Below are positions 15,001 to 24,000 of a stretch of DNA of 39,584 nt, piece after piece. A program made the position numbers. Source of the stretch: Elusimicrobiota bacterium (GTDB lineage: Bacteria; Elusimicrobiota; Elusimicrobia; UBA1565; UBA9628); assembly GCA_027319565.1 (NCBI GenBank), contig DAHVNA010000017.1, forward strand, positions 1 through 39,584. Reading direction: 5' to 3'. The stretch's first letter is position 1; every line of letters starts with the position of its first letter.

Positions 15001-18000
15001 CCCGCCCTTCTCAGCCTTTATTTCCTCCTTTGATGCCGGTCGCTTCTTCTCCGGCCATTCCGGCCAATGCCGATATCCTCGTTGATTCGAAGGATCAAAT
15101 TTCCTTTTTTGGAGAAGACGGGGCTTCGTATCTGAAAATTTATGTGGATCATCATTATGCCGGACGCACCGCTATCGCCGCTAAAAGCGCCCTTAAAAAA
15201 TGGGGAGAAGTTTTAAGTTCCGGGCGGCACCTCCTGCGTTTTGAGAAATGGGATTTGAAGCCTTCGGGCAATTGGCAGACCTTGCTTCCACGCTATCAGC
15301 CGCGCCCGCTGTGGATTTCGGTCGATTTGAGTTCCGAAACGCTTGTTTCTCTGATTTTTTATAATCATGAGCTTAAACACTCCTTAACTGTTCAAACTCG
15401 CCCGATTCCTAAAACAAAATAAAGGGCGTCGTTTGCCGTTTTCTTCAGAACTGGAATATCATCTGCGATCCAAGCTGAAATGACATGTAATTATTGACCG
15501 CCAAGACGGGATTTTGGAGCATGGAAAAAGAGCCGTTGAGAGTCAATCGCAGGTTTTTGGCCAGAGTATAATCGGCATTGGTCGTTATCGAGGTTGTGCG
15601 CGTGTCGTTGGCTTGTATGACCGGAGATTGGCTATAGGCGTAGGAAAGAGTGTTGGTCCAGATCAGGCGGTTGACAAAATAGAGGACCTTGTGCATAAAT
15701 GGAATTTTAAGCCCGCCCGGCATTTCTAGGTCTCCGCGGATAAGGACGCTGGGCGTAATGACGGTCGTATTGTTGGTTTGAATTCCGGTTCCCATAGTCG
15801 TCACGTCCCGAGTGTAGGTGGTTTGAGGGGTCCAGGTAAAATCTCCCCACCGGAAACTGGTTTGGATGGTTGCGTCCTGATGGGTGGTTTTTTGCGTGTT
15901 GGCATTGACTAAGAGATTGTCCGAGGCTGAGTTGTTATCGTCTATGGTGATAGTCGTATCGAAATAATTGCGGATCAGAGTTCGAATATTGGTTTGAAAC
16001 TCAGAATCGGTGTTGATGGTTTGCCCCACGTTATTGGTTTTGTGCGCTTGATAGCGGATATCAAGTTGGGTGTTACTCATCCAGCTTTCCGTATAGAGAA
16101 GTTTTTCCAACTGTCCCATCGATAGGACCACGTCCGGCAGAGTCGTTTCTATCGTTTCGGATTGCGTGCCGGTAATGTCATTTTTTTGCCTGCTGAGAAC
16201 CCAGTTGTTGGTAAATGAGAAAGTGCGGAAGGCCGACAATCGACCTTGGAGATTATAAGCCGACAGGGGTTCCCAGCGCTGGGTTGAATTATAGGTGTCT
16301 CTTTCGGTTAAACTAGTCAGGGTCGCTCCGACGTTGTGAGGGTTAATCTCGCTGCGAATCCACAGATCTCCGAGATCGTTAAAGTTGGTCGCGACGTTGT
16401 TCCAGACATCTCCGTCTTGGAGTTGATAACCATTGATGATAGACAGCGTTCTTAAAAGCCTGTTTTTCGGGAATATCTGCCCAAAATTAAGCGGAATAGA
16501 AATCGAGCCGTTGGCCATGCGGCTAATCGCTTTCGTTTGTCCCGGCTGATAAACGACGGTGGACAAAACGACCGGCGCGGCGCCGGCGGTCGGGGTGCTG
16601 GTCACCACAAAAGTCGAGATGGTCATATCGGCATTTTCGATAGTGTTGATGGAATAGTTTACCGATGGGGTTAGCCAGGATAGGAGTTTCCAATTAGATG
16701 AGAATCCGGCGGTCTGATTGCGGCTAAGCATATAGTTTCCATTGTTGACATCGTTTCCGCCGAGTCCTTGGCTTTGTTGGTTAACGTTTGTCAGTTGGTA
16801 GTTCGGGGTAAAAGAGGCTCCTTTCCAGGGAGTCATCGTGAGATTAAGCGCGCCTCCTTCGGTCGTGTCGACGGTATTGGCGGCATTGAGACTTTCCGCC
16901 TCGGCGAGATTGGTCGATTGCCCGTAATTTATTTTGTAGACCGAATAAGTTCCGTTAGCGTTGATGTTTCGCGGCAAGAAATCGCTTTGACTGGGAACTG
17001 TATATTGCAAGGTTCCCAAGTAGGTGTCGGTGTTATCGGTTCTGTCCAGGGAATCATACTTGATATTATTTTGCGTATAGTTAAACCCAAGATGAGGGAT
17101 ATTGGGCAAATTGAGATTGGCCTGGAAACTGCCGTTGGTCGTCGTTACTTTTCCTGTTTGGAGGATGTTGACGAGGTTTGAGAGGTTTCCGGTTAAGGTT
17201 TCATTGGGGGTGTCGGTGATTTGTTGCGAGACGTTAAACGTCATTGGCAGATAAGAGAGTCTCGTGATGTTGAGAAATGCGCTATTTTGCTCGTTAGATT
17301 GGTTGGAAACCACCGTAACCGGAGTTTGGAAGTTTTGACTTACCGATCGAGTCTCAAGACCAAAGCTGGCCCAGCCGGGGACAAGGAAATTAGCTTTGAT
17401 GTCATCGGCGTTGCCGATTCTTGAAATGGGATCGGCCAGATAAATTTCATCCAAATAGACGATTCCACTCGTCGGAGTATTGTCCGGCAAGGCATTGGGG
17501 CCGAAATTTGTCCGCCGAATACCGGCGACAATTTCTCCCACTTGCTGCAGGCTCGGAATCCCGGAGCTGACTAGGACAGGCTGGTTGACCAAACCGGGTG
17601 GACCTGTAATCGAAACGGATTGCCAGTTATAGGCGATTTGTTGCGAGTTAGTCGCCTGGGTGATGCTAATTTCCGCCCAACCGACAAAATTGAGATTGAC
17701 GTCGACTTCAAAGAAATTGGTGTTATTTCCAACGCGCAAAAAGAAGGTGTTGTCATTGCAGTCGGCGGAAGGGTCGTTGCAAGTTCCGTTGGCATTGGGA
17801 TCCTGGGCGTTTCCATAGAGGAGAAAATTAAAAGTGCGGTGTTGGCTGATGTCGATTCCATTGGCGAATATTTCCTCGGTGGTGACGACGGCGCTGGCGT
17901 AAGGAACGATGAAATTATTGATGGTCATGCTCGAAAAATCAAGTTCCAAGGATTGCTCTTGCACGTTTTGCGTGTTCGATTGCTGTTGAAGGTTGGAGAC

Positions 18001-21000: not shown

Positions 21001-24000
21001 CTTGTGGGACGAAATGAGAAGAAGAAGCGACTTGGGAGGATTAAGCGCCCTTTTTTCTTGTTTCAGTTTTCGATGTTGGGCCTTGGCTTGAGCGGCGAAA
21101 TCGGGGTCATAAGGCATTGAAAACTGGGCATGGAGAAAACGCGGAAGCGCCAGAAGCGAGAGGGCCGCTAATAAATAAAATAAAGTCTTTCGCGTTTTCA
21201 AAATAATAATACCTGTCTTACTGAATTGTAAGAGAAGCGTGTTACAAAGGGATGTTCAAATGAGATCGATTTTGGAGTCACGGCAAAAGGCGGGTTTTGA
21301 GCGAAAAAGGGGCTCTTCCCGGGTATCGGGAGGCATAACCCCTTCCTCTTGGGCGGGGCCCAAGTTTTTTGCGTGTTCATTTGTTTCGGCAACCTGACAA
21401 TCCTTTCGGACTCAGGGCTTTGCGTCCCCGTCTTTGGACGGGTTTGCCTTTATCGCCTGCCTCGATGAATTTCCCCACTCAAAGGACGCCTTTCGGCTAT
21501 CCTCGGCAACAGGCAGGATCGCCATTAAGAGTGTAACAGAGTATTTGCGGCTGTCAAGGGATAAATTTGCGAATTATTTTGCGGGGACAAATACTTAAAA
21601 AATCGCTTTTATTTAAAAGATATTTTTATTCTAATTTAGGGTAAATTGATAAAATACAGGTCAATGAACGCCATTGAGGTCGAACTTCTCGCTAAGGAAT
21701 ATCAGGTTTTTGAACGCAAACCCGGGCTTTGGGGATCTATTGTTTCTGTCTTTTGGAGAGAGTGGAAAAACGTTCGGGCTGTTGACGCGATTTCTTTTGG
21801 GATTCAGGAGGGAGAGTTAGTTGGGTTTCTAGGGGCCAATGGCGCCGGAAAGACGACGACTCTTAAGATGCTCTCAGGCCTCTTAACCCCCAGTTCCGGA
21901 AGCGTCCGGGTTTTGGGGTTTCATCCTTGGAAAAGAGAGAGAGAATTTCAAAGGCAAATTTCTCTGGTTATGGGTCAGCGGACTCAATTATGGTGGGAAA
22001 TTCCCGCTCAAGAAACTTTTCGCTTAAACCAGGCGATTTATGGCCTGTCGGAAAAAGAGTATAGCCAGAGTTTAGGCGAGCTCGTTGAGATGCTGGATTT
22101 AAAAGACTGCCTTTCGGTTCCGGTCAAAAAGCTTTCCTTGGGGCAGCGAATGCGGGCGGAATTAGCGGCGGCTTTGCTTCATCGCCCGAAAATTCTTTTA
22201 CTCGATGAGCCGACATTGGGCCTTGATGTCGTGATGCAGAAAAAAGTGCGCGAGTTTATTCTCGACTACAACCGGAAATGGAAAGCCTCGATTCTGTTGA
22301 CCAGCCACAATATGGACGATTTGGCGGCTCTTTGCCAGCGGGTGTTGATGTTGGAAAAGGGAAAAATTATTTACGACGGGAGTCTTGAACAACTCGTGCG
22401 GCGATACGCCGAAAATAAAGTCATCCGAATGGTTTTTGAGGAGCGCGTTTCTCCCGTTCAAATCGCCGCGTTAGGGGCTCGCCTTGATTCCCTGGGGACC
22501 AGCGCTCTCATTTCGGTTCCACGCTCCGAGGTCTCAAAAAAGGCGGCTCTTTTTTTGTCGTCTTTTCCGATAGTGGATCTGACGATTGAAGAGGCCTCGG
22601 TCGATGAAATTGTTCGTACAATTTTTTCTCGAGCATGAGAAAGTATTGGCGCGCCTATCAGATATCAATTCAAGAAACTCTTCAAAGGCGTTCTTCTTTG
22701 CTCATGGACCGCGTGGGAGGCTTGGCGGTGATGCTCAGCCTTTATTATTTTTGGAAAACCTTGTTGTCTGGGCGTCCGTCATTTTTGGGCTATTCCTATT
22801 CTCAAATGTTGACCTATATTTTGGGAATGAATATTTTAAGATCGTTCGCTTTAACGGGTCGAGGATGGGAATTGGTGGGGGAGATTTCTTCCGGCAAAAT
22901 ATCTTCCTATCTCGTTCGGCCTTTAAACTATCATGGGTATGCTTTGTCTTTGGATTTGTCCAAAAAAACGATACACCTCTTTGCCGCCTTAATCGAAGTG
23001 GGAGCTCTGATATTTTTCTTTCATCCGCCTTTTTATCTTCCGCAATCGATTCTGTCGGCGCTCGCGTTTTTAGCGGCTCTTGTCTTGGCTTCCCTTCTTT
23101 TCTTTTTCCTCGAATTTTTAGTCAGTTCGCTTGCCTTTTGGACTTCGGAATCCGGCGGACCGCTTTTTTTCTTTGAATTATGCGTTCAATTCGCCGCGGG
23201 TGCGTTTTTTCCGCTGGATGTTTTGCCGCGCTTGATTCAGAAAGGCTTGTCTTTCAGCCCGTTTCCCTATCTTGTTTTTTTGCCCATCAATATCTATCTC
23301 GGACGGGTGGGTGAAGGGCAGATATTTCGGGATTTATGGATGGCGGGTCTTTGGACCGCCATTTTCGCCGCCGTTTCACTGGCGGTTTGGAGAAAAGGCC
23401 TGGCAAGTTATTCGGCCGAGGGCGGATGAAAAAGTATTTGAGAGTCTGGTGGAAAATGTCTTCGATGAGCTTGATGGCTCAAATCTCCCATCCCTTGGGC
23501 TCAATCGGATTTTTACTGGGGAAAATTGTTCGCATTGCGTTTTTCTTCGCCTTTATTATCGCGATTTTTAGGCACATTAAAAGTTTGGCGGGATATTCTT
23601 TATCCGAAACGGCTCTTTTTTTCCTGACTTTTAATATCGTCGATATTTCGGCGCAGATTCTTTTTCGCGGAATTTATAGCGCTCGCCGGGCCGTGACCGA
23701 GGGGGATTTTGATTTCTATTTGCTTCAGCCTTGTTCCGCCCTTTTTCGATTGTCGATGACGACTTTTGATTTCTTGGACGCGATTACGCTTTTGCCGGTA
23801 ATCATCATGACCGGCGAAATCTTGGCTAAGTTTTTCTCTCCCACTTTTTTTATTCACTGCCTTCTTTATTTCTTTTTGACCTTGAATGCGGTTTTGATCG
23901 CCTCCTCATTTCATATTCTTGTCGCGGGGCTGGCGGTCAGAACTCAAGAATTGGAAAATACAATTTGGATCTATCGGGATATCATGTTCATGGGAAGGTT

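What a model noticed while it worked through the whole genome (the two positions that open the first line are those of the whole stretch)
15445..21457. Distant SprA/Sov translocon and cargo-PorV gene pairs: a type IX-like secretion system without GldKLMN
The 1918-aa protein g00371, named by no Pfam or Swiss-Prot search, is a distant homologue of SprA/Sov, the outer-membrane translocon of the type IX secretion system; in this genus it stands behind a c-di-GMP-I-GGC riboswitch (C20:21384-21457). Such a protein of about 1800 aa is near-universal in the phylum Elusimicrobiota, even in genomes of 1.0-1.4 Mb. This genome also has seven proteins with a type A T9SS sorting tail, five of them followed directly by their own PorV-like barrel gene, but no GldK/L/M/N. 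The phylum thus carries a pared-down T9SS-like pathway outside the Fibrobacterota-Chlorobiota-Bacteroidota group, with one PorV per cargo.
Evidence so far: TIGR04189 (SprA) matches g00371 at E 4.2e-28, 97 bits, cut-off 200; a profile of g00371 and 11 orthologues hits only SprA of F. johnsoniae in the PDB (6h3i/6h3j, E 1e-22, four stretches); the single sequence finds nothing. SprA-like frames in 92 of 101 genomes of the order and in 113 of 121 sampled genomes of the phylum, 27 families, none over the curated cut-off, none in 14 control genomes. Own HMM of C-terminal tails: g00085, g00232, g00457, g00663, g00924, g01194, g01341; PorV-like next genes g00086, g00456, g00925, g01195, g01340; tail of g00924 passes TIGR04183 (26.6 bits, cut-off 23) and docks on the barrel of g00925 (ipSAE 0.89, best control 0.00, call 174). 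GldM 0 of 101 genomes; Gld [...]
(Added by a program. Inside this text positions count along the whole contig: contig position 1 is position 1 of the stretch shown here. "Call 12" and the like, gene names such as g00115 and contig names such as C1 are that model's own, and its searches are not shown. The text may have been shortened before it was handed on; [...] marks where a part breaks off. The agent that wrote the report below was given it as the finding of a first reader that could run no searches.)

Follow-up and report, generated by a model that had tools for sequence, protein, structure and literature searches.

The report
Type IX-like secretion pore in Elusimicrobiota
This gene encodes a huge outer-membrane pore of a protein export system thought to belong to one other bacterial group; here it lacks its usual motor, its cargo genes mostly sit beside their own carrier gene, and the largest cargos share a gene cluster with motor parts borrowed from the flagellum.

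Summary
Confirmed and extended. The 1918-aa gene is a true SprA/Sov homologue: a 104-sequence profile hits only SprA in the PDB, and models of both halves rank SprA first in Foldseek. It occurs in 180 of 201 Elusimicrobiota genomes and is lost together with PorV-like barrels and sorting tails. GldL/M/N were found in 0 of 68 genomes, now with positive controls. Two corrections. SprA without a detectable Gld motor also occurs in FCPU426 and in deep FCB genomes, so 'pared-down' may be the ancestral state. 'One PorV per cargo' is a tendency (29 of 40). New here: a recurrent operon of giant tailed cargo, PorV fused to TPR, a FliF-FliG fusion, a coiled coil and MotA/MotB, in genomes without flagella (PorV upstream of 45 of 55 fusions). 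Its cargos end in their own tail subtype. It offers an export route for the phylum's giant proteins and a role for its unexplained motAB/fliG genes. Contact between motor and carrier is not shown.

The parts
21530..21557 (-). sigma-70-type promoter-like site (TTGACA-16-TACACT, TG before the second hexamer) upstream of the riboswitch
   Evidence: 10 of 12 matches; consensus match only
21384..21457 (-). c-di-GMP-I-GGC riboswitch aptamer, 183 nt before the start codon
   Evidence: 66.5 bits, E 9.7e-14, motif in 5 of 80 related loci
21303..21348 (-). G+C-rich hairpin ending in a U run, candidate expression platform
   Evidence: leader z -3.5; role inferred; the terminator scan did not list it on this strand
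15445..21201 (-). SprA/Sov-like outer-membrane translocon, 1918 aa
21127..21201 (-). signal peptide (about residues 1-25), followed by an F-S-x-P-Y-D-P-D-F motif kept in relatives
   Evidence: read by eye; no predictor run
20353..20733 (-). barrel strands 1-7 (residues about 157-283), the best-conserved stretch against SprA
19102..19326 (-). barrel strands 8-11 (residues about 626-700), between two large extracellular insertions that also match SprA
15448..17424 (-). C-terminal barrel wall, 27 long strands by my count, ending in QF

Best explanation
The gene encodes the outer-membrane translocon of a type IX-like secretion pathway that is near-universal in Elusimicrobiota. Steps: (1) cargo with a signal peptide crosses the inner membrane by Sec (inferred from signal peptides seen by eye); (2) its C-terminal Ig-like tail enters the SprA-like barrel and is gripped by a PorV-like 14-strand carrier at the lateral opening (inferred from homology to the F. 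johnsoniae structures); (3) carrier and cargo leave together and, since a PorU sortase is mostly missing, the cargo probably stays on a carrier made from the neighbouring gene, which serves as its anchor (inferred); (4) tail subtypes pick carrier subtypes: tails ending K-[IVL]-G-x-x-H go with TPR-fused carriers (association shown, binding not); (5) no GldKLMN motor is detectable (shown at profile level). In most free-living families the TPR-fused carriers are co-encoded with a FliF-FliG fusion and MotA/MotB (shown); these most likely form a proton-driven ring that moves or pulls on the carrier-bound giant protein (inferred). Two small-genome families keep pore, carriers and tails without this module, so basic export does not need it. 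In this genus c-di-GMP probably controls expression of the pore (inferred from the riboswitch).
For: Homology: five co-linear segments over SprA 150-1565; N-half, SprA E 2e-45 to 9e-30, next 3.5e-7; C-half, SprA E 2e-11 to 1e-8, next 3.6e-5; Atlas clusters with PF14349. Joint loss: all 11 genomes without PorV also lack SprA; 17 of 21 SprA-less genomes lack the tail against 7 of 180 SprA-positive ones (five unlisted genomes assigned by elimination). Tails: 40 of 40 end at the stop codon, nearly all with Lys six from the end, 29 of 40 have a PorV-like gene within 900 nt; they match the PorZ and PorU tails. Motor absence: GldM 0 of 68, GldN 0 of 68, GldL 0 of 68 over cut-off, against 9, 9 and 8 of 12 comparison genomes. 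Peptidase C25 over cut-off in 2 of 68. Motor operon.
Against: No experiment. The TIGR04189 score is below its cut-off. VIA-align ranks SprA only 32nd for the C-half (Z 13.9, level with many unrelated barrels), although with the longest alignment, 542 residues at rmsd 6.2. Profile-profile alignment of the C-halves was not significant. The tail profile matches flagellar FlgD as well as T9SS tails, and similar domains occur internally in two proteins of this genome. No barrel passes the PorV equivalog NF033710 (best 76 of 250). Most joint losses lie in one genus and are not independent. Very distant Gld homologues could be missed; GldK was tested in only two Elusimicrobiota genomes. In F. johnsoniae the motor is needed to extract cargo (PMC10994853), so motor-free release needs an explanation that I cannot show.
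Confidence: 0.82

Rival explanations
1. A canonical-style T9SS whose inner-membrane motor and ring have diverged beyond detection, or are replaced phylum-wide by a TolQR/ExbBD-type motor.
For: SprA itself falls below its cut-off. This genome has 7 MotA/ExbB-family genes but one TonB-dependent receptor, two of them in operons of a 1070-aa TPR protein, ExbB, two ExbD and a TonB-like protein. Energy is needed for extraction in F. johnsoniae.
Against: No GldM or GldN signal even at E 0.01. Two single-contig 1.6 Mb genomes have only one ExbB/TolQ gene, in one case inside a tol-pal operon, yet keep SprA, PorV and tails.
Confidence: 0.3
2. The FliF-FliG/MotAB module is not a mover of adhesins but the extraction motor of the pore for giant cargo only, or a mechanosensor or tensioning device; no gliding results.
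For: The module is tied to the largest cargos. No FliM in 4 of 4 non-flagellated genomes, so no standard switch. One torque-site charge pair looks lost on both sides. One fusion carries a histidine kinase.
Against: MotB keeps the proton-binding Asp motif in 26 of 29 and a peptidoglycan-binding domain. The layout parallels SprB/SprF, where the carrier links an adhesin to a moving track.
Confidence: 0.3
3. The barrel is an SprA-fold protein with a housekeeping role in envelope building; tails and PorV-like barrels act separately (for example as FadL-type transporters).
For: Kept in genomes near 1 Mb; a divergent LptF/G-like gene (named by eye) lies upstream in 25 of 80 loci and no T9SS gene is a recurrent neighbour; some barrels match FadL/UPF0164/TraF families.
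Against: It is lost in 21 of 201 genomes, among them two that are 98-99% complete, and its loss goes with loss of tails and carriers; tail genes stand directly before barrel genes.
Confidence: 0.08

Closest known systems
Type IX secretion system of Bacteroidota (SprA/Sov, PorV, type A CTD; F. johnsoniae, PDB 6h3i, 8gl8)
   Same: Translocon fold and order of segments; PorV-family barrels; Ig-like C-terminal tail with a late Lys.
   Different: About 500 aa shorter; about 38 strands by my count against 36 (36 recalled); no GldL/M/N; C25 sortase in 2 of 68 genomes; up to dozens of PorV-like paralogues in place of one shared PorV.
Type B CTD cargo with cognate PorP/SprF carrier (SprB-SprF; PMC12618676)
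   Same: Cargo and carrier genes side by side; carrier sets the cargo's final place; orphans exist on both sides.
   Different: Here the tails score as type A/FlgD-Ig-like and the carriers as PorV/PorQ family; only one of 12 barrels scanned is PorP/SprF-like.
SprA systems of deep FCB lineages (Zixibacteria, Gemmatimonadota, genomes titled Ignavibacteriales) and FCPU426
   Same: SprA and many tails with no GldM or GldN detected.
   Different: They keep PorU or a C25 peptidase. FCPU426 SprA has N-terminal fn3 domains. The three deep FCB genomes tested have only a short, flagellar-size FliG and the FCPU426 genome none.
Flagellar basal-body motor (FliF MS ring, FliG, MotA/MotB)
   Same: FliF C-terminal ring domain, FliG middle and C-terminal domains (E 2e-63), MotA and MotB with plug and OmpA domains.
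   Different: FliF-C and FliG are one chain; no FlhA in 50 of 56 FliG-positive genomes, no FliM in 4 of 4 tested; the neighbours are a T9SS-type carrier and a giant tailed protein.
Gliding motors of Bacteroidota (GldLM-GldKN-SprB) and Myxococcus (AglRQS-Glt; recalled)
   Same: A proton-driven stator family coupled across the envelope to a surface adhesin.
   Different: Neither is known to me to use a FliF/FliG ring; coupling here is inferred from gene order only.

Membership tests
SprA/Sov translocon (TIGR04189) | Score over the curated cut-off (200 bits) | tested here: not met
   97.2 bits
SprA/Sov translocon (TIGR04189) | Giant single-chain barrel with SprA-type extracellular insertions in the same order | tested here: met
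SprA/Sov translocon (TIGR04189) | 36 strands with a lateral opening | tested here: inconclusive
   11 + 27 = 38 strands read from two half-models; SprA's end aligns at model residue 626 of 664; no full-length model
Type IX secretion system | PorV carrier | tested here: met
   PorV/PorQ family NF033709 over cut-off in 5 of 12 barrels scanned; none passes the PorV equivalog; 190 of 201 genomes
Type IX secretion system | Cargo with signal peptide and type A C-terminal sorting domain | tested here: met
   5 tails over TIGR04183 cut-off; 40 of 40 terminal; signal peptides by eye
Type IX secretion system | GldL/PorL-GldM/PorM motor | tested here: not met
   0 of 68 over cut-off; three weak GldL hits at E 0.002-0.009 outside the membrane part; comparison genomes 8-9 of 12
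Type IX secretion system | GldK/PorK-GldN/PorN ring | tested here: not met
   GldN 0 of 68; GldK none in this genome, one 46-bit hit (cut-off 350) in a second
Type IX secretion system | PorU sortase of the attachment complex | tested here: not met
   Peptidase C25 over cut-off in 2 of 68, none in this genome; 4 of 5 comparison genomes positive
Type IX secretion system | SprE/PorW, PorD, Plug, SkpA extended translocon | not tested
   Large TPR proteins and a two-domain Skp are candidates only
Type IX secretion system | Export of tailed proteins depends on the translocon | not testable with these tools
   needs a mutant
Bacterial flagellum | Type III export gate (FlhA) and switch (FliM) | tested here: not met
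   FlhA in 6 of 56, none here; FliM only in the flagellated control
MotA/MotB stator | MotB membrane Asp and peptidoglycan-binding domain; MotA charged residues facing FliG | tested here: inconclusive
   Asp motif 26 of 29; the basic MotA residue is kept, the acidic one is mostly Gln and its FliG partner Arg mostly Gly or Ala (roles recalled from E. coli)
c-di-GMP-I-GGC riboswitch (RF03167) | Score over gathering threshold, upstream of a gene on the same strand | tested here: met

The most novel reading that the evidence does not exclude
Most free-living Elusimicrobiota build a hybrid machine: a flagellar-type MotAB stator turns a fused FliF-FliG ring that has no export gate, and through a TPR-bearing PorV barrel it rotates or drags a surface protein of up to about 19,000 residues that was exported through the SprA pore. 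This would be a new kind of bacterial surface motor, and the SprA-PorV-tail core would be older than the FCB group and older than the Gld motor.
Probability: 0.4. Interest if true: 0.95.

Novelty: new variant of a known kind. Interest (0 to 1): 0.85.

Why it matters
A 2024 paper states that T9SS genes are absent outside the FCB group (PMC11285876, passage read). This shows the pore, carriers and tails across another phylum and in FCPU426, so the core is wider and probably older than assumed, and the Gld motor may be a later addition. It gives an export route for the giant proteins in which Elusimicrobiota are rich and which had no functional assignment (PMC11573180). It gives a context for the motAB and fliG genes of non-flagellated Elusimicrobiota that a 2022 preprint called enigmatic (10.1101/2022.07.08.499144). 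Small-genome members with pore and carriers but no motor make an open mechanistic question testable: can cargo leave SprA without energy?

Tried and rejected
Complex prediction of the TPR-fused carrier with the FliF-like periplasmic domain gave no verdict (0.17, mark 0.32); it counts neither way. Profile-profile alignment of the C-terminal barrel halves was not significant. A family tree of SprA homologues could not be run; profile scores stand in for it and give no root or direction. The neighbourhood of the pore gene holds no recurrent T9SS gene in 80 loci. A scan for loci with the tail alignment found no usable motif. The idea that 38 strands would be unprecedented was dropped: 38-stranded barrels are already predicted in Deinococcus (PMC9388160). 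The idea that the MotAB module is the general energy source was dropped: FliG is missing in 0 of 6 and 0 of 7 genomes of two families that keep the pore. No Pfam match for the first 4093 residues of the 6093-aa cargo fragment. No sequencing reads were examined.
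Full report
The observation. The window is contig C20 of a 2.03 Mb genome, 91.65% complete. 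The frame 15445-21201 (-) gives 1918 aa. NCBIfam names only TIGR04189, E 4.2e-28, 97.2 bits, cut-off 200; Pfam names nothing. A c-di-GMP-I-GGC aptamer lies 183 nt upstream, behind a promoter-like site and before a hairpin with a U run. A regex for the aptamer matched upstream in 5 of 80 related loci, the closest five. A homologue search gave 166 proteins among 8000 candidates; all named ones among the 120 listed are Elusimicrobiota, and 6 carry PF14349 SprA_N.

It is SprA. A profile of 104 of these sequences (17 listed ones were left out for size) hits only F. johnsoniae SprA in the PDB, E 4.9e-25, in five co-linear segments over SprA 150-1565, four of them significant; the single sequence finds nothing. 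I modelled residues 150-1300 (pLDDT 83.6) and 1255-1918 (pLDDT 88.7). Foldseek puts four SprA chains first for both: E 2e-45 to 9e-30, next 3.5e-7; E 2e-11 to 1e-8, next 3.6e-5. Against this, VIA-align ranks SprA 32nd for the C-half, level with unrelated barrels, though with the longest alignment (542 residues, rmsd 6.2), and profile-profile alignment of the C-halves failed. I count 11 barrel strands before residue 1255 and 27 after it, 38 in all; SprA's end aligns at model residue 626 of 664, which fits two extra strands over the 36 I recall for SprA. This count is by eye from two half-models.

Cargo and carriers. Seven proteins end in a related 95-residue tail; five pass TIGR04183. The tail profile matches the tails of PorZ (E 2e-7) and PorU (3.5e-6) and also flagellar FlgD (1e-8). 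Cargos include subtilisin-like, kelch-repeat and Ig-rich proteins of 558 to over 6093 aa. Five of the seven are followed by a PorV-like gene. The genome has 13 PorV-like frames; of 12 scanned, five pass the PorV/PorQ family cut-off, none the PorV equivalog, one is PorP/SprF-like and one TraF/FadL-like. For the best-scoring tail of each of the first 40 genomes in the ranked list, 40 of 40 end at the stop codon and 29 of 40 have a PorV-like gene within 900 nt (one locus had too little DNA).

Spread and joint loss. In 201 genomes of the phylum: pore 180 (162 of 171 good genomes), PorV family 190, with up to 61 first-look candidates per genome, tail 177. All 11 PorV-less genomes lack the pore. 17 of 21 pore-less genomes lack the tail, against 7 of 180 with the pore (one pore-less and four tail-less genomes were not listed and are assigned by elimination). 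Most losses lie in one small-genome genus and are not independent; G042 and G013 (98-99% complete, other genera) lack pore and tail but keep barrels.

The missing motor, with controls. A motif scan gave SprA-bearing comparison genomes. GldM and GldN: 0 of 68 Elusimicrobiota, 9 of 12 comparison genomes. GldL: 0 of 68 over cut-off, three weak hits at E 0.002-0.009, 8 of 12 comparison genomes. GldK was tested in two Elusimicrobiota genomes only. Peptidase C25 passes in 2 of 68. One negative comparison genome, G213, has a 2172-aa SprA-like protein whose named relatives are FCPU426, with weaker hits to Zixibacteria and Gemmatimonadales proteins already annotated SprA. Nine genomes titled Zixibacteria or Ignavibacteriales have SprA but no GldM; four tested have PorU and many tails and no GldN (no positive control in that call). 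The three titled Ignavibacteriales have Zixibacteria-like SprA and may be mislabelled. Profile scores fall from Elusimicrobiota to FCPU426 (338-439 bits), deep FCB (182-233), Gemmatimonadales (121) and Flavobacteria (70-93). So SprA without a detectable Gld motor is not special to this phylum.

This genome has seven MotA/ExbB-family genes and one TonB-dependent receptor. Two are in operons with carriers. On C33: 2777-aa tailed cargo, PorV-TPR, a kinase-FliF_C-membrane helix-FliG fusion, coiled coil, MotA, MotB. On C27: PorV-TPR, FliF-like-membrane helix-FliG-TPR fusion, 894-aa coiled coil, MotA, MotB. FliG is firm (PDB E 2e-63); the FliF-C call is weaker (Pfam E 2.8e-5; Atlas 0.90). FliG domains occur in 54 of 74 Elusimicrobiota genomes but in 0 of 6 and 0 of 7 of two small-genome families, probably the gut families (my inference). 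Of 60 fetched FliG loci, mostly the best hit per genome, 5 are flagellar and 55 are long fusions: PorV-like gene within 2.5 kb upstream in 45 of 55, a tail within 4.5 kb in 29, MotA nearby in 30, all three in 12 (13-kb views, so lower bounds). FlhA is present in 6 of 56 FliG-positive genomes, FliM in 1 of 5, the flagellated one. MotB keeps its Asp motif in 26 of 29; one MotA-FliG charge pair looks lost on both sides. Open frames of 12,044 to 18,913 aa end in the tail 3-4 kb before such a fusion (G010, G032, G078, G144). Tails before TPR-fused carriers end in His in 26 of 34; among the 40 tails, 8 of 9 before PorV-TPR end in His against 1 of 21 before plain barrels (kin are not independent). 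The orphan 6093-aa cargo on C24 has the His-type tail and the C27 operon has no cargo, so they may be a pair (inference). All named relatives among the 120 listed of 409 are Elusimicrobiota.

Mechanism. In F. johnsoniae the tail binds PorV inside SprA without energy, and energy extracts the carrier-cargo complex (PMC10994853, sections 7, 8 and 12 read). Type B cargos have cognate carriers that set their final place (PMC12618676, abstract and discussion read). I infer the same loading here, with type A-like tails and dedicated PorV-like carriers that stay on as anchors. How cargo leaves the pore without Gld is open: spontaneous release of single-use carriers, or a Tol/Exb-type motor. For giant cargos the FliF-FliG ring and MotAB are the likely engine; contact with the carrier is not shown.

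Literature. Ten searches of the open library found no paper linking Elusimicrobiota to SprA, PorV or T9SS, or PorV to FliG/MotB as a system; for most hits I saw only the listing. Passages read: PMC11285876 (T9SS genes absent outside FCB), PMC5837995 (possible T9SS in Chlorobi, Fibrobacteres, Ignavibacteriae), PMC11573180 and 10.1101/2023.11.21.568195 (giant proteins in Elusimicrobiota, no T9SS mention), 10.64898/2026.06.07.730766, PMC12204202, PMC9388160, PMC7031533, PMC5445135 (no hits for my terms), and section 13 of 10.1101/2022.07.08.499144 (motAB and fliG without flagella, role enigmatic). I read no supplements; those of the preprints are closed and may bear on the motor genes. Subscription papers were not searched; I recall older surveys reporting sprA and tails without gldKLMN in Rhodothermus and Ignavibacterium, unverified. 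NCBI family names already attach 'PorV/PorQ family' and 'T9SS type A sorting domain' to such proteins.

Verdict. It works like a T9SS translocon pathway but fails the membership features of motor, ring and sortase: a new variant of a known kind, outside the known range. The attached flagellar-type motor module is the most surprising part and rests on gene order and homology alone.

Noticed in passing
G000:C27:4839-12966 (L009, L257) and G000:C33:12695-28838 (L005, L258): Operons of PorV-TPR, FliF-FliG fusion, coiled coil, MotA and MotB in a genome without FlhA; recurrent across the phylum.
   Followed up: yes
G000:C23:154236-163300 (L256) and G000:C45:10127-16900 (L254): Operons of a 1070-aa TPR protein, ExbB, two ExbD and a TonB-like protein; the C23 one also has a 1099-aa protein of tail-like Ig repeats ending in an OmpA domain. 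Candidate energiser or gliding-type motor.
   Followed up: partly
window 33088-36631 (-): Two HEAT-repeat genes followed by ExbB, ExbD and a TonB C-terminal protein, with no receptor nearby.
   Followed up: no
window 26826-27857 (+): [quoted passage not shown]
   Followed up: no
G000:C61:1-3338 (L012), G000:C30:6889-9417 (L011): A PorP/SprF-like barrel with TPR stands before a HAMP histidine kinase; another PorV-like barrel with a coiled-coil tail stands before a regulator-like gene and a probable sigma/anti-sigma pair. Possible trans-envelope signalling.
   Followed up: no
G000:C51:1-5226 (L010): PorV-like gene upstream of an Ig-rich protein of over 1373 aa cut by the contig end: a possible eighth cargo with reversed gene order.
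   Followed up: no
L265, L267-L269, L278, L286, L289, L291, L300, L317: Small genes (120-180 aa) that are little more than a tail stand directly before PorV-TPR, sometimes after a giant cargo; possible plugs or adaptors.
   Followed up: no
L220:6676-13194 (G213:C2): FCPU426 SprA-like protein with N-terminal fn3 domains, in a genome with a C25 peptidase and no GldK/L/M/N or FliG match.
   Followed up: partly
L199 and L309 (G223): A genome titled Deltaproteobacteria carries a pore of this type and the PorV-TPR/FliF-FliG/MotA operon; mislabelled or a further lineage.
   Followed up: partly
G000:C56:31701-45680, C32:21336-29657, C25:11276-18517: Frames of 4659, 2774 and 2413 aa without the tail.
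   Followed up: no
window 37001-39490 (+) and 14907-15422 (+): An 829-aa protein with only a weak carboxypeptidase-regulatory-like hit, and a 171-aa probable lipoprotein convergent on the pore gene with no family match.
   Followed up: no
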